This document shows positions 1-22,165 of a stretch of DNA of 64,000 bases, piece by piece; within the stretch, counting starts at the first letter, position 1, and every line of letters begins with the position of its first letter. The notes beneath the pieces are model-generated. The model made no database searches and was not told the origin of the DNA. It saw nothing but the letters and a program-made list of their open reading frames with translations. Location: contig JBIOJK010000003.1 of NCBI GenBank assembly GCA_044450765.1, forward strand, positions 19,856-83,855, written 5' to 3'. The DNA is from Myxococcota bacterium (GTDB lineage: Bacteria; Myxococcota_A; UBA9160; SZUA-336). Position numbers and translations under genes: made by a program.

Positions 1-709
1 ACTCGGCCGTGAGCACGTCGCCGGGCGCGCCGTGGGCGGCGACCGCGCCGCGCTCGAGTAAGACGATCTCGTCCGCGAAGCGGGCGGCGAGCCCGAGATC
101 GTGAGTCACCAGCAGGATTCCGCGCCCGGGCGCGGCGCACAGCCACGCGCGCAGCCACTCGAAGCAGTAGAGGCCGTGGCCGAGATCCATGTGCGCGGTC
201 GGCTCGTCGAGCAGCCAGGTGTCGACGCCCTGCGCGAACGCGCGCGCGAGCAGGACGCGCCGCTTCTCGCCGCCCGACAAGGTCGGGTAGGCGCGCTCGG
301 CGAGGCCGCCGAGGTCGAGCGCGGCGAGCGCCGCTTCGGTGCGCGCGAGGTCGTCCGGCGACTCACGGCCCAGCGCGCCCAGGAACGGCGCGCGCCCGAG
401 CGCGACCATCTCGCGCACACTGAAGGGGAACTGCATCGCGCTCTCCTGCGGCACGACCGCCAAGCGCTGCGCGACGCCGCGCCGTGTGTGCTCCGCGATC
501 GCGACACCGCCAAGTGTCACCTCACCCGAGTCGGGACGCAGCACGCCGGAGAGCGCGCGCAACAGCGTCGTCTTTCCCGCTCCGTTCGGCCCGACGACGA
601 CGAGCAGCTTGCCGGGGCCGAGCGACACGTCGACGCCGCGCAAGACGCGCGCGGCGCCGAATGCGTGCGAGAGAGAGCGCGCCTCGACCAGCGACTGGGT
701 CACGCCGCG
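1..709 (-). CDS. ABC transporter ATP-binding protein (FepC/FecE/BtuD-like). The protein is complete here, with its GTG start at 709 and its stop just inside the left edge (~101); only the 3' flank runs off the window
   Basis: Reverse-strand translation gives a Walker A (GPNGAGKTTLL), an ABC signature (LSGGE) and a Walker B/D-loop (LLDEPT). The GTG start overlaps the upstream permease stop (GTGA). Confidence 0.8.
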
Positions 710-1666
710 GGCAGTCGGGCGAGCTCACGCCGCAGCAGGACCAGGAACAGGGGGCCGCCGACCAGCGCAGTCAGCGCGCCGACCGGAAGCTCGGTCGGCG
801 CGAGCACGACGCGCGCGAGTGTGTCGGCGACGACCAGGAACGCCGCGCCCGCGAGCGCCGACGCCGGAACCAGCAGGCGGTGGTCGGATCCGAACGCGAG
901 CCGCAGCAGGTGCGGCACGATCAGGCCGACGAAGCCGATCAGGCCGGAGACCGAGACCGACGCGCCGATCATGAGTGCCGTCCCGGCGAGGATCCAGCGG
1001 CGCACCGCCGGCACGTCTACCCCGAGCTGCGACGCCGTCTCGTCGCCCTGCGCGATCAGGTTCAGCGCGTACGCGAAGCGCAGGGCGATCGCGAGGCCGA
1101 GCCCGAGCAGCGCCGCGACTGCCGCGAGCAGCGCCGGCTCGACCGAGCGGATCGAGCCGATCAGCCAGAGGAACACACCCGCCACCCTCGCGAGATCGGC
1201 GGCGCTGGTCGCGAACACGATCAGCGACGACGCGAAGGCGTTGAACACGACGCCGGTCAGCAGCAGGCTGTGAGCGGGCGCGCGCCCGCCGGCGGCCGCG
1301 ATCGCGTAGAGCAAGAGACTCGCGCCGAGCGCGCCCGCGAACGCCACCGCCGGCACCGCCGCAGCGCCGAGCCACAGGCCGCCGCCGAGCGCGAGCGCGG
1401 CGACGCCGCCCAGCGCCGCGCCGCCCGAGATTCCAAGCACGTACGGGTCGGCGAGCGGGTTCTGCAAAAGCGCCTGGAGCAGCGTGCCGGCCGTCGCGAG
1501 GCCCGCGCCGACGAGCGCGGCGAGCAGCGCGCGGGGCAGGCGAATCTGCAGCACGATCTCGCGCGTCGCGTGCTGCGCCGAGCCGACCAGCAGACTCACA
1601 CCCAGAGCGGCGGCGAGCAGCAGCGCAAGCGCGCCCAACAGCGACCCGCGCGAGCGTCGAGTCACG
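700..1666 (-). CDS. FecCD-family ABC permease (iron-siderophore/cobalamin type)
   Basis: C-terminal roughly 320 aa of the 700..2319 ORF. Multi-TM sequence typical of BtuC/FepD. The GTG start overlaps the binding-protein stop. Confidence 0.8.
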
Positions 1667-2516
1667 ACCCGAGCTCCGGGTGAATGCGCGCGCGGAGGAG
1701 CTGGGCGCCCTGCGCGAGCTTCGCGCCCGGCAGGGTCGCCACCCCCGGCGGCACGAGCTCGACGCGCTTCAGCCAGGCAAAGCGACCCCAGTACGCCCGC
1801 GCGGCGTCGCGCGCGGCGGGCCCCTGTTCCTGCCGCGTCGAGTCGATCAGGACCTCGGGCGCGCGCTCGGCGAGTAACTCGAGCGACACCTGCGGGTAGC
1901 TGCGCGCCAGGTCCGCGAACACGTTGCGCCCGCCGGCCGCTTCGATCAGCGCACTCGCAAAGCTGCCGCCGGCAGCGACGTAGAGCGGCTCGCGCTCGAC
2001 GACGAGCGCAACGCTCGGCCGGCGCCGCCCTGCGACGGAGCGCGCGACCCCCGCCAGCTCGGCGCGCACGCGATCGGCCAGCTCGCGGCCCTGCGCGCCG
2101 CGGCCGACGAGCCCGCCCACGCGTTCGTAGTTCGCGATCACCGCGTCGAGTGACCCGCCGGTGTCGATCTCGCGCACGGCGATCCCGCGCGCGCGCAGCT
2201 CCGAGAAGAACCCGGCTTGTGATTCGCTCTGCACGCCGACGACCAAGCTGGGGCGCAGCTCGAGCGTGCGCTCGAGATCCGGCGCGAACAGTCCGCCCAG
2301 CGACGGGATCGAGCCGCATTCGGGAAGCTCGCGCGAGAAGCGGTCGACGCCCACGATCCGGTCGCGCATGCCGAGCGCGAGGAGTATCTCGGTCGTCGAG
2401 GGCGAGAGCGAGATCACGCGCAGCTCACCCGACTCGGCGGTCGCCCGCGCGCCCGCCTGCTCGCGACAGGCCGCGAGCGCCAGAACGAGACAGACGACGC
2501 GGACGGAGGCGCGCAC
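1662..2516 (-). CDS. Periplasmic substrate-binding protein, class III (FepB/BtuF-like)
   Basis: 284 aa with an N-terminal signal/lipoprotein-like peptide (LALAAC) and a BtuF/FecB-like fold. It is the first gene of the three-gene importer operon. Confidence 0.7.
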   Translation of the reverse strand: MRASVRVVCLVLALAACREQAGARATAESGELRVISLSPSTTEILLALGMRDRIVGVDRFSRELPECGSIPSLGGLFAPDLERTLELRPSLVVGVQSESQAGFFSELRARGIAVREIDTGGSLDAVIANYERVGGLVGRGAQGRELADRVRAELAGVARSVAGRRRPSVALVVEREPLYVAAGGSFASALIEAAGGRNVFADLARSYPQVSLELLAERAPEVLIDSTRQEQGPAARDAARAYWGRFAWLKRVELVPPGVATLPGAKLAQGAQLLRARIHPELGS

Positions 2517-13390: not shown

Positions 13391-13962
13391 GGGACTCGTC
13401 CGATGCGCTCGACGAACTCCGAGAGCATGCGTCGCTCGTCGTCGGCGCTGAGCTGCCGGCGCACGATCTCGCCCGCCAGCGAGATCGCCAGCCGCGCTGC
13501 TTCGCGCTGCAGCTCGGCCCGCGCGCGCTCGATCTCCTGGTCGGCCGCGCGCCGCGCTTCCTCGCGCACTCGCGCGGCGGCGCTGCGCGCGCGCTCGAGC
13601 GCCTGGTCGCGCTCGCGCTCGGCGATCTCGGCGGCCTCGCGCACCAGCGCTTCGTTCTCTTCCGAGATGCGCTCGAGCCGCGCGCGAATCTCGTCGTTCG
13701 CGCTGCGGGCGCGCTCGAGCGCCGTGCGTGCGGTGTCGAGCTGGCGACGGACGCTGTCGCTGCGATCCCGCAAGAACGTTTGGACAGGCTGGCGCAAGAA
13801 GTAAACGAGGACGCCGATCAAGACCGCGAGGCCGAACGCGTGAAACGCGAGCAGACTCCAGTCCGTGGCGTGCTCTGCGTGCGCCGCATGCTCCGCCGCG
13901 ACGGCGTGTCGGGCCAGCAGGAGTGCGCCCGCGATCAGCGCCTGTCGGAAGGTCGCGCGCAT
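13387..13962 (-). CDS. atpF: ATP synthase F0 subunit b
   Basis: 191 aa with a single N-terminal TM helix followed by a long charged helix (ERARAELQREAARLA...). Confidence 0.8.
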   Translation of the reverse strand: MRATFRQALIAGALLLARHAVAAEHAAHAEHATDWSLLAFHAFGLAVLIGVLVYFLRQPVQTFLRDRSDSVRRQLDTARTALERARSANDEIRARLERISEENEALVREAAEIAERERDQALERARSAAARVREEARRAADQEIERARAELQREAARLAISLAGEIVRRQLSADDERRMLSEFVERIGRVP

Positions 13963-14477
13963 CAGACCGGCCTACCGAGCAGTCGAGCCGCTGCCTCGTC
14001 CGCGAGCGAGCGTGCGTCCGTCTCGAGCGTGAGTCGCGCGCTCGCGAGATCGTCAGCGATCGAGGCGCGCACGCTGTCGAAGCTGCGCGCGGCGTCGGCG
14101 GAGGCAGCCTCCAGCAGCGCCCGCTCCTGTGACTCCGCGTCGGCCATGATCGCGGCGCGGCGGGCTTGCGCTCGCTTGCGCGCTTCGACCAGACGCGCCT
14201 CCAGCTGCGACCCGAACGCGCTCGCCTCGCCATCGAGTCGGCTCGCTTCGTCGAGGGCGCCCGCGGTGCGCCGCTCGCGTTCCTCGGCGAGCCTCAGGAG
14301 CGGCGCGATCAAGAGGCGATTCACCGGATAGATCAGCAGGCCGAACACGACGACGTTCGTCGCGACGTACGGCCAGTGCGGGATCAGGTTGAGATCTGCG
14401 GCGGACGCAGCGGTCGGGATCGCGGCCGCAGCCGCGGCAAGCGACACCGAGAGCGCAATGTCCGCGGCGGCGCGCAA
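13962..14477 (-). CDS. ATP synthase F0 subunit b'
   Basis: 171 aa, a second b-type subunit with an N-terminal TM helix and charged coiled coil, lying directly upstream of atpF. Confidence 0.7.
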   Translation of the reverse strand: MRAAADIALSVSLAAAAAAIPTAASAADLNLIPHWPYVATNVVVFGLLIYPVNRLLIAPLLRLAEERERRTAGALDEASRLDGEASAFGSQLEARLVEARKRAQARRAAIMADAESQERALLEAASADAARSFDSVRASIADDLASARLTLETDARSLADEAAARLLGRPV

Positions 14478-14549
14478 GCAGATCTCCCTTTGGTCGCACC
14501 CGTGGCCAGGAAGGATCCGGCAGCGCAGTCCCTCCCCGAAGCGTGCGCG

Positions 14550-14577
14550 AATATGGCAAAGGAGGAACTCAAGTCAA
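14550..14577 (-). promoter_or_regulatory. Candidate sigma70-like promoter for the atpF'FHAGDC operon
   Basis: On the minus strand: TTGACT, then 16 nt, then CATATT, about 65 nt upstream of the atpF' start. Confidence 0.3.
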
Positions 14578-14626
14578 TCAGCGCCGCTGCCACATTTCGC
14601 TGCTCTCCCGCAGCGCTGGCGCCGAA

Positions 14627-14977
14627 TCAGCGGCGCAGGCTCGGGGTCGCGGCGGGTTCGCCCATCTCGATCCGCGCGCTGACCTGAGCGCCGTCGGCGA
14701 CGCGCAGTCTGGGCGTGCGCAGCACCCCGTCGATCCGGCCCTGCGGCCCGACCTCGACGCGCTGCTTCGCAGTCACTTCGCCGACGACCGAACCGAGCAC
14801 GATCAGCTCGCGAACCTCGAGCTTCGCGTCGATCGTTCCTGTCTCGCCGACGATCAGCGTGCCGTCGGCGCTCGCGGTGCCGCGAAAATGCCCGTCGATG
14901 CGCACAGCGCCGGTGAACGAGATCTTCCCCTCGAACGAGGTGCCGCTGTCGAGGAACGTCTGCAGATCGGGCTTCAC
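14627..14977 (-). CDS. Bactofilin (DUF583/CcmA-family cytoskeletal protein)
   Basis: 116 aa with repetitive beta-helical bactofilin sequence (GTIDAKLEVRELIVLGSVVGEVTAKQRVEV). Its ATG overlaps the parB stop (ATGA). Confidence 0.8.
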   Translation of the reverse strand: MKPDLQTFLDSGTSFEGKISFTGAVRIDGHFRGTASADGTLIVGETGTIDAKLEVRELIVLGSVVGEVTAKQRVEVGPQGRIDGVLRTPRLRVADGAQVSARIEMGEPAATPSLRR

Positions 14978-15864
14978 GATTCCTCTCCCAGCAGTCGCCC
15001 CGAGAGGCGTTCGAGCTCGCCCTCGCCGAAGTAGTGGAGCTCGATGCGACCGCGCGCGCGGCGGCCGATGATCCGCACCTTGGTCTGCATGGCTTTGCGA
15101 AGCCGCTCTTCCAGATCCGCCACGTGGACGTCGCGAACCGGGCCGGGGCGCGGGTGGCGCGGCGCCGACGACGCCGCGCGGCGCCCGAGCTCTTCGGCGG
15201 CACGAACGGACAGCGAGGTGCGAATGATCTGGTCGCGAACCATGACGCGCTGCTCGACCGGAACTTGAAGGATCGCCTTTGCGTGGCCCATGGTGAGTCG
15301 CTGGTCGATCAGGTCCTGCTGAATGTCTCGCGGGAGCTCGAGAAGTCGTAGGTGATTCGCCACGCTCGAGCGGTCCAATCCGACGCGTCGACCGGCCTCC
15401 TCTTGCGTCATTCCCTCGTCATCGATCAGGACCCGAAACGCCTCGGCCAGCTCCATCGGGTTGAGATCGGCGCGCTGAACGTTCTCGACGAGCGCCATCT
15501 CGACGACCTGGCGATCCGTCGCGTCGAGAATCACAGCCGGAACTTCGTCGAGGCCGGCGAGCTGAGCAGCCCGCCAGCGACGCTCCCCGATGATCAGCTC
15601 GTAGCCGTCTCCACGTCGGCGGACGACCAGCGGCTGGAGGATTCCCTGCTCGCGAATCGAGGCTGCGAGCGCGGAGAGCTCGCTATCGCGGAACAGCTTG
15701 CGGGGCTGGCCCGGATTCGGCGCGATCTTCGAGATCGCGATGAAGAGCGGCGCCGCCGACGCGTCATCCGCGTCTAACGCGGTCCGCTCGACGCGCGTCA
15801 CAGGTGGGGCGGGCGGCGGAATGAGGGCGGAGAGACCACGGCCGAGCCCCTTACGAGTCGCCAT
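14974..15864 (-). CDS. parB: Chromosome partitioning protein ParB
   Basis: ParB/Spo0J N-terminal box (GERRWRAA) and HTH; 296 aa. Confidence 0.9.
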   Translation of the reverse strand: MATRKGLGRGLSALIPPPAPPVTRVERTALDADDASAAPLFIAISKIAPNPGQPRKLFRDSELSALAASIREQGILQPLVVRRRGDGYELIIGERRWRAAQLAGLDEVPAVILDATDRQVVEMALVENVQRADLNPMELAEAFRVLIDDEGMTQEEAGRRVGLDRSSVANHLRLLELPRDIQQDLIDQRLTMGHAKAILQVPVEQRVMVRDQIIRTSLSVRAAEELGRRAASSAPRHPRPGPVRDVHVADLEERLRKAMQTKVRIIGRRARGRIELHYFGEGELERLSGRLLGEES

Positions 15865-16627
15865 CCTTGATCCTTTCCAGAAGCTCCTCGGCGAGCTGCA
15901 GATAGCTCAGTGCGCCCTTGGAGTTGATGTCGTAGAGCAACGCGGGCTTGCCGTGGCTCGGGGCCTCCGACAGCCGCACGTTGCGCGGAATCACCGTGCG
16001 AAAGACCCGCTCGCCAAAGTGCTCGCGAGTCTCCTTCGCGACCTGCAGCGCGAGGTTGTTGCGCACGTCGTACATCGTCAGCACCAGTCCTTCGATCGCC
16101 AGGCGTGGGTTCAGCGAAGCCCGGACGAGATCGATCGTCTGGGTCAGCTTCGCGAGCCCTTCCAGCGCGAGATACTCGCATTGGAGCGGGACGAGAACGG
16201 AGTCCGCGGCGACGAGCGCGTTCAGCGTCAAGAGCCCCAGCGACGGTGGAGTGTCGATCAGGATCACGCGATAGGTGTCGCCCACGCCCTCGAGCGCCTT
16301 CGTCAGCCGGCGCTCTCGCTCCGGCGCCGCTGCCAGCTCCACCTCGGCGCCGACGAGATCAGTGGACGAAGGAATCAGGCGCAGGAACTGCAGCTGCGTC
16401 TCGATCGCCACCTCGGCCACGGTCGCTTCCCCGAGCAAGAGGTCGTAGACGTCGCTCTTCAGATCGGATGGCGTGAAGCCCAAGCTGGACGTGGCATTTG
16501 CCTGCGGATCGAAGTCGACGAGCAGGGTCGGGGTTTCAGCCGCCGCGAGCGACGCAGCCAGATTGACCGCGGTCGTAGTTTTCCCGACGCCGCCCTTCTG
16601 ATTCGCGACCACAATGATCCGGGCCAC
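15851..16627 (-). CDS. parA: Chromosome partitioning ATPase ParA/Soj
   Basis: Deviant Walker A (ANQKGGVGKTTTAVNLAASLA). Start reset to a GTG at 16627; the longer 16678 start would overlap the parS-like element. Confidence 0.9.
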   Translation of the reverse strand: MARIIVVANQKGGVGKTTTAVNLAASLAAAETPTLLVDFDPQANATSSLGFTPSDLKSDVYDLLLGEATVAEVAIETQLQFLRLIPSSTDLVGAEVELAAAPERERRLTKALEGVGDTYRVILIDTPPSLGLLTLNALVAADSVLVPLQCEYLALEGLAKLTQTIDLVRASLNPRLAIEGLVLTMYDVRNNLALQVAKETREHFGERVFRTVIPRNVRLSEAPSHGKPALLYDINSKGALSYLQLAEELLERIKDGDS

Positions 16628-16671
16628 TCTTCCACCCCGCGAGCGAGCTCGCAGGGAGAGTCTACCCCAGA

Positions 16672-16726
16672 GTTCCACGTGCTAGGAGTGGAACCCGAGC
16701 GACTTCAATCCGTTCCACGGGAAAAA
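16672..16726. promoter_or_regulatory. Two parS-like degenerate sites: GTTCCACGTG-ctaggag-TGGAAC and GTTCCACGGGAAAAA
   Basis: Both resemble the GTTCCACGTGGAAC variant of the parS palindrome. The first is in the rsmG-parA spacer, the second in the rsmG 3' end. Confidence 0.3.
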
Positions 16727-17256
16727 TCCGCCGCACGCACCCGCAGAATCCTGCCGCCCGATGCGAGCGGCAGCGGTCGCGCGCCGCGCAGGTCCGCGGT
16801 CGCCGATGCCCAGACCCAAATTTCGCCCGTCGCGACGACCCACGGGAGAGCCAGCTCCGCGCTCCGCTCGGGCTTGGCGACCGCGCGGAGGAGCGCGAAG
16901 TCGAATCCGACGCTGGGCGGTGTCTCGATCGAGGTCCCGGAAATCTCGATCGAGAGCGCGAGCTCCCGTGCGACGTGGCGCAGGAACGCGAGGCGCTTCT
17001 CTCGGACCTCGACGAGGACGAAGCGAAGATCCGGGCGCGCAAGCGCGATGGGAATTCCAGGAAAGCCGGCGCCGCTGCCGAGATCGACGACCCGAGAATT
17101 CGGCGGGAGATGCGCCGCGGCCGCGAGCGAGTCCTCGACGTGCCGCGCGAGCGCAGCCGGCTCCGTCGACCCGACCAGGTTCATCCGCTGGCCCCAGCGC
17201 GCGAGCTCGGCGGTGAAGACTTCGAGGCCGGCGCGGAGCGCCGCCTGGTTGGTCAC
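16705..17256 (-). CDS. rsmG: 16S rRNA m7G527 methyltransferase RsmG (GidB)
   Basis: SAM motif (VVDLGSGAGFPGIPIAL), 183 aa, in the usual position upstream of parAB. Confidence 0.8.
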   Translation of the reverse strand: MTNQAALRAGLEVFTAELARWGQRMNLVGSTEPAALARHVEDSLAAAAHLPPNSRVVDLGSGAGFPGIPIALARPDLRFVLVEVREKRLAFLRHVARELALSIEISGTSIETPPSVGFDFALLRAVAKPERSAELALPWVVATGEIWVWASATADLRGARPLPLASGGRILRVRAADFSRGTD

Positions 17257-18242
17257 CCCGGGAAGATCTTGATTCGCTTCCTCGCGCCTTCGCCTTCGCT
17301 CTCCGAGCGCACTCCTCGCTCGTCCTTGAGGGCGTTGTGCACGAACCAGCGCTCGCGAGAGTTCATCGGGGGCAGGAGCACCGGCTCGCTTGTTTCGCGC
17401 ACCGAGCGCGCGGAATCGCGCGCGAGTCGCTCGAGCTCGCCTTCGTCGATGTCTCGGTCCTCGGGGTCGCGACCCCGTCCGGGCCGCTCTCCACCCCGTC
17501 CGTTCGAGCGCTGATCGCGGCGTCCGTCGCGCTCACCCCGCTCGCGAGTCTCCTCACGCGGCGCTCGCCGGATGCCGCGCACCTCGACCAGCGCCGCCGT
17601 GTCGTCGTCGATCAGCGCCTCGGCAGCCCGGTGCGCGAGATGGGACAGCGCCGCGATGAGTCGCGGCTCGCGCTCCGCCAGCGACGTGATCGAGCGCCCG
17701 GCGAGCGTGACGACGATCTCTCCCTCGTCGGTCTGCGCCTCCGAAACGGTCACATCGCGCAGCTTCATGCGCTCGAGGATGCCGGCGACGAAGGTCCCGA
17801 CCTGGCCGAGCGCACCGCTCGGAGCGGGAGTGACTTCGTCGTTCGGCTCGTGGCGAGGCTCACGCGCTGGAGGTGCACTCGGGTGTGGCGCGGGCGGCGG
17901 AGCAGGGCGCGACGATTCTGCGCCTGAGCGCGAGCCACCGCGATCTCGGCCCCCGCGCTCTCGATCGCCGCGATCCCTGTCGCGGTCGCGCGGCCGGTCT
18001 CGGTCGCGCTCAGCTGGCCGCCGCTCCTCGCGGCGCGGCTCGGGCGTGCGGTTCGACCGCTCCGAGCGAGGCGCGGCGATCATCAACACGCGGCCGCCGA
18101 GTCCCGAGATCTCGACTGAGGGCGGAACCACCCAGTACTCCAGCTGATCCGCCGAAGCGCGGAAATAGCTCTCGGCCAGCGCAAGGGCGGCTTCGCGAGT
18201 CTCGGCAACGAACTCTCGCACGTCGTCTACGGATGCATTCAT
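17253..18242 (-). CDS. jag: Jag/SpoIIIJ-associated KH/R3H RNA-binding protein with Arg/Asp-rich low-complexity inserts
   Basis: Jag N-terminal domain, KH-like middle, and a C-terminal R3H (ERWFVHNALKD...RKRIKIF). The 4-nt overlap is with the rsmG start; jag itself sits downstream of yidC after a ~14-nt spacer. Confidence 0.75.
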   Translation of the reverse strand: MNASVDDVREFVAETREAALALAESYFRASADQLEYWVVPPSVEISGLGGRVLMIAAPRSERSNRTPEPRREERRPAERDRDRPRDRDRDRGDRERGGRDRGGSRSGAESSRPAPPPAPHPSAPPAREPRHEPNDEVTPAPSGALGQVGTFVAGILERMKLRDVTVSEAQTDEGEIVVTLAGRSITSLAEREPRLIAALSHLAHRAAEALIDDDTAALVEVRGIRRAPREETRERGERDGRRDQRSNGRGGERPGRGRDPEDRDIDEGELERLARDSARSVRETSEPVLLPPMNSRERWFVHNALKDERGVRSESEGEGARKRIKIFPG

Positions 18243-20493: not shown

Positions 20494-20643
20494 CTACTTC
20501 CTCTTCGTCACCCGCGTGAGCGCGTGACGACCCTTCGCGCGGCGCTGCGAGAGCACGCGGCGTCCGCCCTTCGTGCTCATGCGCGCGCGAAAACCGTGGT
20601 TGCGCGCACGGCGGATACGACTGGGCTGAAAGGTGCGCTTCAT
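20494..20643 (-). CDS. rpmH: 50S ribosomal protein L34
   Basis: [45 protein letters not shown], 49 aa. Below the ORF-track size cut-off and found inside a longer spurious ORF. Confidence 0.9.
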
Positions 20644-20768
20644 GGGGAGCTGCCTCGCGAGCCTGGCTCGCCGGTGGGCGTGTATGAAAGCACCAGGTCC
20701 CGGGAGTGTCAACGCTGCGGGCGCGCAGATCGCGGGTGAACGCTCGCGGAAAAGTTCGCGTCTCGTTC

Positions 20769-20796
20769 TTGCATTGCTGCGCGCCGCTTTGATAAG
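20769..20796 (+). promoter_or_regulatory. Candidate dnaA promoter (TTGCAT, N16, GATAAG)
   Basis: Only sigma70-like pair found in the rpmH/dnaA divergent spacer; about 50 nt upstream of the dnaA ATG. Confidence 0.25.
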
Positions 20797-20845
20797 CAAC
20801 TCTCATCCCACTCGTTCGCGCCTCGCGAAAGGTCCGACTCCCCCG

Positions 20846-22165
20846 ATGACTGCGAAGATGACTGAGCTCGTCCGCCCGGACGAGGCCGCTTCCCTTTGGA
20901 AGTCGGTGCTGCAGACGCCCTCGCCGAGGATTGGCGCCGCGACGAGAGACTCGCTCGCGGAGAGCACGCGCTGCCTCGAGCGCACGGGGTCGGAGCTCCG
21001 CGTCGCGATCGACTCGGCGCAGCTCGACGCCGGGCTGCGCGGCGGCCAGCTGGCGGTGCTCGAGGTGTCGCTCGCGAATCTCACCGACGGTGCGACGGCG
21101 CTCGCTCTCGTGCCCGTCGAGGATCTCGGATCGAAGCGCGGCGACCCGAGCTACACGCTCGCGACCTTCGTCGCGAGCCCGGCGAACGCGAAGGCGCGCG
21201 CGAAAGCGGCGGCGTTCGCGCGAGACGCGCCGGCGTCGGGTGGCGCGCTGGCACTCCACGGCGGCGCGAGCTCGGGCAAGACGCACCTGCTCCGAGCGAT
21301 CGCCAGCGCGCTCGGCGATGCGCGCGGCGTCGAGCGCGTGCTCTGCTGCAGCGCAGAGCAGCTGTGTCAGGAGCTGATCCGCGCGATCTGGGCTGACTCC
21401 GTCGACGAGTTTCGCGAGCGCATCGGCTCCGTCGACGCGCTGGTCGTCGACGATCTCGACGAGCTCGTGGGCCGCGACGCGACCCAGGAGGAGCTCGCGC
21501 TGGCGCTCGAGACGCTCGGCGCGCGGGGTGTTCCGATCGCGATCTCGCTCTCGAAGCCGATCGAGCGCACCTCGGGAATGGTCGCCTCGCTGCGCGGTCA
21601 GCTCGCCCGCTTCGCGGAGCTCGAAGTGCGCGCGCCCGAGTGGGAGACCCGGGTCGCGATCGTGCTCGCGCACGCGCGGCGCTGGCGCGTCGAGCCGAGC
21701 GCCGCCGTCGCGTCGTTCATCGCGAGTCGGCTGCGCGCGCACCTCGGCCGGCTCGACGTCCTGCTGACTCGCCTGATGACGCGCTCGTCGGCCGCGGCGA
21801 GCGCGCTCGCCGATCTCGACGTGGTCAAGCACCTGCTCACGGGCGCGGGCGAAAAGCCGCTCGCGACCTCGCCCGACGACGTTCTGACCGCCGTCACGCG
21901 CCAGTTCAACCTGCGCGTCCGCGAGCTGCGCTCGTCGAGCCGCAGCGCGCGAGTGACTACGCCGCGCCAGGTCGCGATGTACCTGATGCGACGCCACTGC
22001 GGGCTCTCGTATCCGGAGATCGGCCGCCGCTTTGCGCGCCACCACACGACCGCGCTCCACGCGGACCGCATCGTGCAGGCGCAGCTGTCCGAGAACGCGA
22101 GTCTCCGCGCGGCCGTCGTGCTGATCGAGAAGGATCTTCTGCGGCTCTCCGAGGGCGGTGGATGA
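20846..22165 (+). CDS. dnaA: Chromosomal replication initiator DnaA
   Basis: AAA+ Walker A (GGASSGKTHLL) and a C-terminal DnaA-box-binding domain (MYLMRRHCGLSYPEIGRRF..HTTAL). Start set to an ATG at 20846. Confidence 0.9.
   Translation: MTAKMTELVRPDEAASLWKSVLQTPSPRIGAATRDSLAESTRCLERTGSELRVAIDSAQLDAGLRGGQLAVLEVSLANLTDGATALALVPVEDLGSKRGDPSYTLATFVASPANAKARAKAAAFARDAPASGGALALHGGASSGKTHLLRAIASALGDARGVERVLCCSAEQLCQELIRAIWADSVDEFRERIGSVDALVVDDLDELVGRDATQEELALALETLGARGVPIAISLSKPIERTSGMVASLRGQLARFAELEVRAPEWETRVAIVLAHARRWRVEPSAAVASFIASRLRAHLGRLDVLLTRLMTRSSAAASALADLDVVKHLLTGAGEKPLATSPDDVLTAVTRQFNLRVRELRSSSRSARVTTPRQVAMYLMRRHCGLSYPEIGRRFARHHTTALHADRIVQAQLSENASLRAAVVLIEKDLLRLSEGGG

What the first reader, a model, noticed from the sequence alone, without database searches (positions are those of the whole stretch)
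14627..16627. A bactofilin gene translationally coupled to parA-parB
A 116-aa bactofilin starts with ATGA overlapping the parB stop. That makes parA-parB-bac a single unit. In Myxococcus xanthus, bactofilins BacNOP and the adaptor PadC lie directly downstream of parAB and scaffold the ParABS machinery. Here there is one bactofilin and no PadC-like (ParB/Srx-domain) gene; the atp operon follows instead. Either this is a minimal variant of that system, or a direct bactofilin-ParB/ParA contact replaces the adaptor.
Basis: partly seen in the sequence, partly recalled or inferred. Interest (0 to 1): 0.55.

Follow-up and report, generated by a model that had tools for sequence, protein, structure and literature searches.

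The report
BacM-type bactofilin gene after parAB
A small cytoskeletal (bactofilin) gene really does overlap the end of the chromosome-partition gene parB, but this is the parA-parB-bacM gene order already described in Myxococcus and Bdellovibrio, and the one tested member shapes the cell rather than positioning the partition machinery.

Summary
On the minus strand, parA (15851-16627), parB (14974-15864) and a 116-aa bactofilin (14627-14977; Pfam PF04519, E=1e-25) are packed together. The bactofilin start overlaps the parB stop by 4 nt, but the motif is GTGA, not ATGA. This (A/G)TGA overlap is kept in all 12 loci of the clade examined.

The interpretation starts from a wrong premise. In M. xanthus the gene directly downstream of parAB is bacM. 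bacNOP-padC form a separate operon (PMC5703909). bacM is co-transcribed with parAB and is dispensable for ParA/ParB positioning (PMC3899335, PMC5703909). B. bacteriovorus has the same co-transcribed parA-parB-bactofilin unit (PMC7186360).

I recovered BacM. It is 35% identical to the window protein over the whole domain, and both fall in one sequence group.

Across 80 genomes this group is not tied to parB. Twenty loci have mreD-PBP2-rodA upstream. Thirty-six of 63 evaluable loci have the F-type atp operon downstream, and five have a V-type ATPase there.

A conserved promoter-like block separates the bactofilin from atpF'.

The best reading is a tail-less BacM-type bactofilin that is the last cistron of the parAB operon, probably acting in cell shape or the envelope. 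It is a new member of a known kind and of low to moderate interest.

The parts
16705..17256 (-). rsmG (gidB), the gene upstream of parA in the conserved origin-proximal block rnpA-yidD-yidC-jag-rsmG-parA-parB-bac
   Evidence: Pfam PF02527, E=2e-33. NCBIfam TIGR00138 scores 106 bits against a cut-off of 99.5. Relatives L001-L003 and L014-L024 show the same gene order.
16659..16720 (-). rsmG-parA intergenic control region. It holds two parS right half-sites (CGTGGAAC at 16712-16719 and 16672-16679; the second is part of CACGTGGAAC at 16672-16681) and a conserved -10-like TAGACT at 16659-16664.
   Evidence: Two of the three CGTGGAAC copies in the window lie here. The block GCACGTGGAAC-N7-TAGA(A/C)T is conserved in 11 relatives, and in basal relatives it is a nearly complete parS, CCTTTCACGTGGAACA. 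Its function as a promoter or ParB operator is inferred.
15851..16627 (-). parA (Walker-type partition ATPase). The likely start is GTG 16627 (258 aa), although the ORF is open to 16678.
   Evidence: Pfam AAA_31, E=1.9e-61. Relatives encode a 258-aa ParA. The stop overlaps the parB start by 14 nt.
14974..15864 (-). parB (296 aa) with ParB_N, HTH_ParB and ParB_C domains
   Evidence: Pfam E=1e-32, 4.5e-29 and 4e-4. NCBIfam TIGR00180 scores 163.6 bits against a cut-off of 58.45. It is 43% identical to Myxococcus ParB from L094.
14974..14989 (-). Translational-coupling junction: a Shine-Dalgarno-like GGGAGAGGAA (14989-14980) followed by GTGA, in which the bactofilin GTG start (14977-14975) overlaps the parB TGA stop (14976-14974)
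   Evidence: Read directly from the sequence. An (A/G)TGA junction is conserved in 12 of 12 clade loci.
14627..14977 (-). Bactofilin, 116 aa, made of the core domain only: a 4-residue N-terminal tail, an 11-residue C-terminal tail and no membrane-targeting peptide
   Evidence: Pfam PF04519, E=1.1e-25. PDB sequence hits 6RIA (5e-10) and 2N3D (6e-8). The AF2 model has pLDDT 86.5 and is a beta-solenoid over residues 5-104. Foldseek gives TM 0.77/0.88 to 6RIB and 0.78/0.87 to 2N3D. It is 35% identical to BacM and 79-89% identical within the clade.
14550..14577 (-). Sigma-70-type promoter-like site, TTGACT-16-CATATT with a TG extension, in the bactofilin/atpF' gap. It is the probable promoter of the atp operon.
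   Evidence: It is the only promoter-like hit in 14300-17400, where 0.1 is expected by chance. The block TTGACTTG...CTTTGCCATA(T/C)T is conserved in all 11 aligned relatives, down to 54% bactofilin identity.
13962..14477 (-). atpF' (F-type ATP synthase subunit b'), first gene of atpF'-atpF-atpH-atpA-atpG-atpD
   Evidence: Pfam PF00430, E=2.7e-9. Weak NCBIfam matches to b/b' models. The same gene order occurs in relatives.

Best explanation
The gene encodes a BacM-type bactofilin. [quoted passage not shown] Here the gene is the last cistron of the origin-proximal (rsmG-)parA-parB-bac transcription unit.

Ribosomes finishing parB at TGA restart at the overlapping GTG, helped by the GGGAGAGG Shine-Dalgarno sequence. 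The bactofilin is therefore made together with ParB. The atp operon that follows has its own promoter.

The position after parB is an old, inherited gene order of the former 'Deltaproteobacteria' (Myxococcota, Bdellovibrionota and some deep lineages). It is not a sign of a ParABS-specific scaffold.

The most likely job of the polymer is the one shown for BacM, namely maintaining cell shape and envelope integrity, probably in connection with the elongasome.

Shown here:
- family membership and fold
- the overlap and its conservation
- the synteny
- the promoter-like block in front of atpF'
- purifying selection on the gene

Inferred:
- co-transcription and translational coupling
- polymerisation
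- the cell-shape function
For: Family and fold.

Coupling: the GTGA overlap with a Shine-Dalgarno sequence, conserved as (A/G)TGA in 12 of 12 loci.

Operon boundary: a conserved promoter-like block lies in the bac/atpF' gap and no terminator follows the bactofilin.

Precedents:
- M. xanthus parA-parB-bacM-MXAN_7474 is one transcript, and BacM is not needed for segregation (PMC3899335).
- bacM lies immediately downstream of parAB, and its deletion leaves ParA and ParB localisation unchanged (PMC5703909).
- Loss of BacM gives bent or crooked cells (PMC4372379).
- B. bacteriovorus parA3-parB-bd3904 is co-transcribed (PMC7186360).

Relatedness to BacM:
- BacM was recovered from L094 and is confirmed by NCBI naming at 99% identity.
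- It aligns without gaps at 35% identity over the domain.
- It sits inside the same neighbour-joining group, and unlinked paralogues lie outside.

Elongasome link: in 20 of 80 loci the orthologue follows mreD-PBP2-rodA on the same strand.

Selection: within the clade the bactofilin is 79-89% identical, as conserved as ParA and ParB and more conserved than RsmG, AtpF or AtpH.
Against: - No expression or phenotype data exist for this organism, which is an uncultured Myxococcota MAG.
- BacM-to-window identity is only 35%, the lowest pairing within the group.
- The tree is a neighbour-joining tree on about 120 columns with no support values.
- BacN, BacO and BacP were never obtained, so assignment to the BacM paralogue rests on position plus clustering.
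- The window protein lacks BacM's processed N-terminal extension and long C-terminal tail.
- It has Val99 where the polymerisation-interface Phe sits (TtBac F105, BacM F125).
- The very tight coupling to parB is specific to this clade and M. xanthus. That could reflect a real stoichiometric need for ParB and the bactofilin together.
- In rodA-linked loci the gaps are 30-200 nt. The elongasome association is therefore adjacency, not proven co-expression.
Confidence: 0.6

Rival explanations
1. In this clade the single bactofilin would scaffold the ParABS machinery by touching ParB or ParA directly, doing without the PadC adaptor used by BacNOP in M. xanthus.
For: - The 4-nt translational coupling to parB is conserved in 12 of 12 loci.
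- The bactofilin is as conserved as ParA and ParB.
- It has no membrane-targeting tail, so it could be a cytoplasmic polymer (MTS consensus in PMC12448750).
- The same speculation was published for B. bacteriovorus bd3904 (PMC7186360).
- The window lacks a canonical parS, which hints at a somewhat unusual partition system.
Against: - The only tested parAB-linked bactofilin, BacM, has no effect on ParA or ParB localisation.
- Orthologues in most other lineages have left parB while staying next to rodA and/or atp.
- The protein has no BacP-like C-terminal tail for recruiting partners.
Confidence: 0.13
2. The bactofilin belongs functionally with the ATP synthase or energised-membrane genes downstream. 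For example, it might organise or position ATP synthase or envelope complexes. Its link to parB would then be incidental.
For: - An atp operon lies directly downstream in 36 of 63 evaluable loci from Desulfobacterota and Myxococcota. That includes 23 of the 59 loci evaluable on both sides that have no parB upstream.
- In L005-L007 the gene sits between two atpF'F pairs inside an atp cluster.
- In five loci a V-type ATPase operon takes the place of the F-type operon right after the bactofilin.
- No terminator follows the bactofilin in the window, so read-through into atp is possible.
Against: - A conserved promoter-like element separates the bactofilin from atpF'.
- The gaps to atpF' are about 100-145 nt.
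- M. xanthus BacM and 25 of the 59 loci evaluable on both sides have no ATPase genes nearby.
- Adjacency of housekeeping operons can persist by inertia alone.
- I found no published bactofilin-ATP synthase function.
Confidence: 0.1
3. The gene is a neutral passenger. It would be a conserved general-purpose polymer with no specific tie to any neighbour, expressed from the parAB operon only because that is where it landed.
For: The upstream neighbour differs by lineage: parB, rodA, a Ser/Thr kinase-like gene or an unknown secreted protein. Bactofilins in general serve as hubs for varied cargo (PMC5703909 discussion).
Against: Sequence conservation within the clade is strong. The start-stop overlap is strictly retained. 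Recurrent linkage to elongasome genes (20 loci) is unlikely for a gene without a defined role.
Confidence: 0.12

Closest known systems
BacM (MXAN_7475) of Myxococcus xanthus, encoded in the parA-parB-bacM-MXAN_7474 operon
   Same: - It is a bactofilin gene directly after parB on the same strand. In the Myxococcus-like locus L094 the spacer is only 3 nt.
- It aligns without gaps at 35% identity across the whole domain.
- It falls in the same sequence group.
[quoted passage not shown] The exact cleavage site, Ser28, is from my memory of Koch et al. 2011.
   Different: - There is no N-terminal pro-region and almost no C-terminal tail (116 aa against 149-150 aa).
- Val99 replaces the interface Phe125.
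- The atp operon follows, instead of the MXAN_7474 lipoprotein gene.
- The junction is a true 4-nt overlap rather than a 3-nt spacer.
- Function is untested here.
bd3904, the bactofilin gene of Bdellovibrio bacteriovorus (bd3908 rsmG-like, bd3906 parA3, bd3905 parB, bd3904)
   Same: The order is the same, with an rRNA methyltransferase gene, then parA, parB and a bactofilin (PMC10547168). Co-transcription of parA3-parB-bd3904 was shown by RT-PCR (PMC7186360).
   Different: It belongs to a different phylum. The sequence was not compared here, and its function is likewise unknown. The authors only speculated about a ParB scaffold.
BacNOP-PadC scaffold of M. xanthus (MXAN_4637-4634)
   Same: The proteins are bactofilin-family polymers from the same phylum. 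This is the only bactofilin system shown to position ParABS.
   Different: - It is encoded in a separate operon, not next to parAB.
- It uses three co-polymerising paralogues plus the ParB-like adaptor PadC.
- BacP has a long C-terminal tail.
- The window has one tail-less bactofilin and no PadC-like ORF.
Thermus thermophilus bactofilin (PDB 6RIA/6RIB) and Caulobacter BacA (PDB 2N3D)
   Same: They share the same beta-helical fold: TM 0.77/0.88 with rmsd 2.1 A, and TM 0.78/0.87 with rmsd 1.5 A. Sequence E-values are 5e-10 and 6e-8.
   Different: Both carry an N-terminal membrane-targeting peptide (MFSKQAKS in BacA; PMC12448750). The window protein has none. Its interface Phe is replaced by Val.

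Membership tests
Bactofilin (Pfam PF04519 / DUF583) | Full-length match to the bactofilin domain profile above the gathering score | tested here: met
   90.2 bits against a cut-off of 27.9, E=1.1e-25, profile positions 1-97 of 98.
Bactofilin (Pfam PF04519 / DUF583) | Beta-helical (solenoid) fold like the solved bactofilins | tested here: met
   The AF2 model has pLDDT 86.5 and is all-beta over residues 5-104. The best PDB matches are 6RIB (TM 0.77/0.88) and 2N3D (TM 0.78/0.87).
Bactofilin (Pfam PF04519 / DUF583) | Conserved hydrophobic end-to-end polymerisation interface, including the C-terminal Phe (TtBac F105, BacM F125) | tested here: inconclusive
   The aligned position is Val99 in the window, and V, I or L across its clade. 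More distant group members keep Phe. The residue is still hydrophobic. Polymerisation itself cannot be tested here.
Bactofilin (Pfam PF04519 / DUF583) | N-terminal membrane-targeting peptide (consensus MFSKKKK). This is typical of the family but not universal. | tested here: not met
   Only four residues (MKPD) precede the first strand. The consensus comes from PMC12448750.
BacM-type (parAB-linked) bactofilin | Gene immediately downstream of parB, on the same strand, in the origin-proximal parAB unit | tested here: met
   The start overlaps the parB stop by 4 nt. dnaA lies about 5.7 kb away. BacM has the same position in L094 and in PMC5703909.
BacM-type (parAB-linked) bactofilin | Sequence closer to BacM than to the other M. 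xanthus paralogues (BacN, BacO, BacP) | tested here: inconclusive
   Identity to BacM is 35% at 74 bits. Both cluster together, away from the unlinked paralogues P0097-P0109, which score 53-64 bits. BacN, BacO and BacP sequences could not be obtained, and the tree has no support values.
BacM-type (parAB-linked) bactofilin | Co-transcription with parAB | not testable with these tools
   This is inferred from the conserved overlap, the lack of a terminator after the bactofilin, and a promoter-like site that lies only downstream of it.
BacM-type (parAB-linked) bactofilin | N-terminal extension that is removed by proteolysis | tested here: not met
   No extension is possible, because 14977 is the first start codon in the open frame. 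The protein begins where the BacM core begins.
BacM-type (parAB-linked) bactofilin | Cell-shape phenotype on deletion, with no effect on ParAB positioning | not testable with these tools
   This is known only for M. xanthus.
BacNOP-PadC ParABS scaffold | Several co-polymerising bactofilin paralogues encoded in tandem | tested here: not met
   There is one bactofilin ORF in 64 kb, even at E<=50 with the HMMER filters off. The rest of the genome was not available.
BacNOP-PadC ParABS scaffold | Adjacent PadC-like adaptor carrying a ParB/Srx-type domain | tested here: not met
   The only ParB-like ORF in the window is parB itself. The next-best hit has E=0.56.
BacNOP-PadC ParABS scaffold | Physical recruitment of ParA (through PadC) and of ParB-parS complexes | not testable with these tools
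   This needs interaction or localisation experiments.

The most novel reading that the evidence does not exclude
The BacM-type bactofilin could be an ancestral 'deltaproteobacterial' organiser that works with membrane machines encoded beside it. On one side lies the elongasome (mreD-PBP2-rodA). On the other lies an ATP synthase. The ATPase adjacency persists whether the enzyme is F-type or V-type. In this clade, tight coupling to parB would additionally tie production of the bactofilin to the origin-segregation module. If true, a bactofilin would position ATP synthase or cell-wall synthesis relative to the chromosome origin.
Probability: 0.08. Interest if true: 0.7.

Novelty: new member of a known kind. 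Interest (0 to 1): 0.25.

Why it matters
As it stands, this is a correct gene call placed in a known arrangement, so the main value is corrective. The parAB-linked bactofilin of Myxococcota is the BacM type, not the BacNOP/PadC scaffold. It should not be annotated or interpreted as a partition scaffold.

The comparative survey adds some context:
- The block rsmG-parA-parB-bac-atpF'FHAGD(C) is conserved throughout the window clade. Parts of it recur in distant lineages, which is what an ancestral block would look like.
- The bactofilin is a frequent breakpoint neighbour of rodA/PBP2 and of ATPase operons.

This gives testable hints about what the still poorly understood BacM-type bactofilins do. 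A tail-less natural variant that equals the processed BacM core could also be a convenient minimal protein for biochemistry.

Tried and rejected
- An exact-sequence look-up of the window bactofilin in the contig index found nothing. The source is known only as an NCBI Myxococcota MAG on a 90-kb contig.
It worked with 12 sequences.
- NCBIfam has no model that hits this protein, BacM or two homologues, even at E<=10. The NCBI name 'bactofilin BacM' could therefore not be used as an HMM membership test.
- Koch et al. 2011 (PMC3091990) is not held. The cleavage site Ser28 is from memory.
- BacN, BacO and BacP were not obtained. A search with BacM listed only BacM orthologues among its best 120 hits, and no fetched locus contains tandem bactofilins.
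- No canonical parS was found in the window at up to 3 mismatches.
- Rfam at gathering threshold gave no hits, and the tandem-repeat scan gave nothing relevant.
- A greedy longest-ORF neighbourhood call in these GC-rich loci produced some spurious antisense ORFs. For that reason the parB and atp tallies rest on tblastn rather than on those clusters.
- The terminator-like hit at 16731-16746 lies inside rsmG and is within chance expectation, so I ignored it.
- I considered that the bactofilin might be the first gene of the atp operon. I rate that unlikely because of the conserved promoter-like block between the two.
Full report
**1. What is there**

The window has about 70% G+C. On the minus strand it carries the classical origin-proximal block. 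dnaA (plus strand, 20633-22165) faces rpmH-rnpA-yidD-yidC-jag-rsmG-parA-parB, which is followed by a 116-aa ORF and then atpF'-atpF-atpH-atpA-atpG-atpD.

Pfam identifies the 116-aa ORF (14627-14977) as a full-length bactofilin domain: PF04519, E=1.1e-25, profile positions 1-97 of 98. The upstream genes are ParB (ParB_N, HTH_ParB, ParB_C) and a ParA-type ATPase. NCBIfam agrees for ParB, RsmG and the b/b' subunits.

The junction reads ...GGGAGAGGAATC-GTG-A.... The bactofilin GTG start (14977-14975) overlaps the parB TGA stop (14976-14974).

The bactofilin frame is open for another 441 nt upstream, yet it contains no ATG, GTG or TTG before 14977. Homologues also start at the same residue, with MK.xLQTFLD. 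The start is therefore well supported.

parA and parB overlap by 14 nt. The real parA start is most likely GTG 16627, giving 258 aa as in relatives.

**2. Is the coupling more than chance?**

The closest database proteins are 79-88% identical bactofilins of 108-125 aa from uncultured Myxococcota or 'delta proteobacterium' MAGs. The 100% match is annotated as coming from a Myxococcota MAG.

In every relative with enough flanking sequence, the block rnpA-yidD-yidC-jag-rsmG-parA-parB-bac-atpF'FHAGD(C) is the same.

The start-stop overlap is kept as ATGA or GTGA in 12 of 12 loci, which range from 54% to 89% bactofilin identity.

Within the clade the bactofilin is as conserved as ParA and ParB (79-89%) and more conserved than RsmG, AtpF or AtpH. 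It is therefore a real gene under selection.

**3. Operon boundaries**

Only one sigma-70-like site is found between 14300 and 17400. It is TTGACT-16-CATATT with a TG extension, at 14577-14550, inside the 149-nt gap between the bactofilin and atpF'. By chance 0.1 such sites are expected. No terminator-like hairpin follows the bactofilin.

Aligning this gap from eleven loci shows that the block TTGACTTG...CTTTGCCATA(T/C)T is conserved throughout. A second box, CAGCGAAATGTGGCA, is conserved in the closer relatives.

The simplest reading is that the bactofilin is the last gene of the parAB unit and that the atp operon has its own promoter. Read-through into atp remains possible.

**4.

Lin et al. 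[quoted passage not shown] They also report that deleting bacM has no significant effect on ParA or ParB-YFP localisation. [quoted passage not shown] In B. bacteriovorus the same order is drawn (bd3908 methyltransferase, bd3906 parA, bd3905 parB, bd3904 bactofilin; PMC10547168). Co-transcription of parA3-parB-bd3904 was shown by RT-PCR. Those authors had already speculated about a ParB-bactofilin scaffold (PMC7186360).

The arrangement is therefore known, and the only tested member argues against a partition role.

**5. Is the window protein a BacM relative?**

I rebuilt a wild-type stretch of bacM from a mutagenesis primer in PMC4372379. Using it as a probe, I fished a Myxococcus-like metagenome locus, L094.

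L094 encodes parA-parB-bacM-lipoprotein, with a 3-nt spacer between parB and bacM. Its 149-aa product matches the primer-encoded peptides. It is 99% identical to proteins that NCBI names 'bactofilin BacM'.

BacM and the window protein align without gaps over the whole domain at 35% identity. Their ParBs are 43% identical.

In a neighbour-joining tree of 87 sequences, BacM falls inside the group that holds the window clade and all parB-, rodA- and atp-linked homologues. The unlinked paralogues P0097-P0109 fall outside. BLAST scores agree: 74 bits for BacM against the window protein, versus 53-64 bits for the outgroup.

This supports positional and sequence orthology, with caveats:
- The tree has no support values.
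- The BacM-to-window pairing is the most divergent one in the group.
- I could not obtain BacN, BacO or BacP.

**6. Anatomy of the protein**

The AF2 model has pLDDT 86.5 and is a beta-solenoid from residue 5 to 104, with a disordered tail from residue 110. It superposes on T. thermophilus bactofilin filaments (6RIB, TM 0.77/0.88, rmsd 2.1 A) and on BacA (2N3D, TM 0.78/0.87). The sequence hits agree.

Three features are worth noting:
- **No membrane-targeting peptide.** Only MKPD precedes the first strand, whereas the family consensus is MFSKKKK (PMC12448750).
- **The protein starts at the BacM core.** Window residue M1 aligns with BacM R27. The protein therefore begins where BacM's core begins, after its proteolytically removed N-terminal region (PMC4372379). 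The exact site, Ser28, is from my memory of Koch et al. 2011.
- **The interface Phe is replaced.** The Phe at TtBac F105 and BacM F125 is Val99 in the window protein, and V, I or L across the clade.

**7. Wider synteny**

A scan of GTDB representative genomes returned the 80 best of 251 relatives. I scored the neighbours with tblastn, and 59 loci had enough flank on both sides.

| Identity to the window protein | Loci | parB upstream and atp downstream | atp only | parB only | Neither |
|---|---|---|---|---|---|
| 50% or more | 9 | 9 | 0 | 0 | 0 |
| below 50% | 50 | 1 | 23 | 1 | 25 |

Over all loci evaluable on the relevant side, atp lies downstream in 36 of 63 and parB lies upstream in 14 of 72.

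Clustering of the neighbours, with Pfam annotation, gave three further results:
- In 20 loci, mostly Desulfobacterota, the upstream genes are mreD, PBP2 (PF00905 + PF03717) and rodA (PF01098, E=1e-106), all on the same strand.
- In five loci a V-type ATPase operon (G-like subunit, subunit I, proteolipid) follows the bactofilin instead of the F-type genes.
- In many Haliangiales and Kofleriaceae loci the upstream genes are a Ser/Thr-kinase-like protein and an unknown secreted protein.

In one lineage the gene sits between two atpF'F pairs inside an atp cluster.

The gaps to rodA and to atpF' are tens to about 200 nt. Tight coupling to the upstream gene is therefore special to the window clade and to M. 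xanthus.

The parB-linked and atp-linked states are interspersed on the tree. This is what an ancestral parA-parB-bac-atp order with later breaks on either side would produce. That reconstruction is an inference.

**8. Mechanism I consider most likely (confidence about 0.6)**

The bactofilin is translated by ribosomes that terminate on parB and re-initiate at the overlapping GTG. It then assembles into nucleotide-independent polymers. Like BacM, it supports rod-shape and envelope integrity, possibly together with the elongasome.

Its place after parB is inherited gene order.

Rival readings:
- A direct ParB or ParA scaffold: about 0.13.
- A functional tie to ATP synthase: about 0.10.
- A passenger gene with no specific partner: about 0.12.

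The evidence for and against each is given in the structured fields.

**9. Verdict**

This is a new member of a known arrangement.

Interest is low to moderate (0.25). The remaining curiosity lies in the recurrent rodA-bac-ATPase neighbourhood and in the degenerate parS sites.

Noticed in passing
L025, L030, L033, L037, L040, L043, L049, L053, L057, L070, L083, L093 and others (bactofilin match at about 8001 in most of these loci): In about 20 Desulfobacterota-type genomes the orthologous bactofilin sits directly after mreD-PBP2(mrdA)-rodA on the same strand and directly before atpF'-atpF-atpH-atpA-atpG-atpD. I found no paper describing this elongasome-bactofilin-ATP synthase neighbourhood.
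   Followed up: partly
L059, L068, L072, L074, L087 (genes +1 to +3 after the bactofilin): In five loci the F-type atp genes after the bactofilin are replaced by a V-type ATPase operon (G-like subunit, subunit I PF01496, proteolipid PF00137). The bactofilin-ATPase adjacency therefore survives a change of ATPase type.
   Followed up: partly
L005-L007 (bactofilin at 5001-5411 in L005): A 136-aa homologue (40% identity) lies inside an atp cluster between two atpF'-atpF pairs: atpI-atpB-atpE-atpE-atpF'-atpF-bac-atpF'-atpF-atpH-atpA-atpG-atpD.
   Followed up: no
window 1-64000; half-sites at 16672-16681 and 16712-16719: No canonical parS (TGTTNCACGTGNAACA) occurs in the 64-kb origin region at up to 3 mismatches. 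Only two right half-sites (CGTGGAAC) remain just upstream of parA, one of them within a split inverted repeat, GTTCCAC-N9-GTGGAAC. Basal relatives (L022-L024) have nearly full parS sites near there, and L035, L073 and L076 have two perfect or near-perfect parS sites upstream of parA.
   Followed up: partly
window 16659-16681 (minus strand): The block GCACGTGGAAC-N7-TAGA(A/C)T is conserved upstream of parA in 11 relatives. It is a -10-like hexamer preceded by the parS half-site, which suggests ParB autoregulation of the parAB-bac promoter.
   Followed up: partly
window about 14586-14600 (minus strand), upstream of the atp promoter-like site: A box, CAGCGAAATGTGGCA, lies about 10 nt upstream of the -35 hexamer. 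It is conserved in relatives with 79% or higher bactofilin identity. It may be a regulator site for the atp operon.
   Followed up: no
window 13962-14477 onward; no atpB or atpE nearby: The ATP synthase genes are split. Only atpF'-atpF-atpH-atpA-atpG-atpD(-atpC) follow the bactofilin. The a and c subunit genes are not adjacent.
   Followed up: no
window 1-2000: This stretch has the highest G+C in the window (0.746) and an unusually strong AT skew (+0.295) compared with the rest.
   Followed up: no
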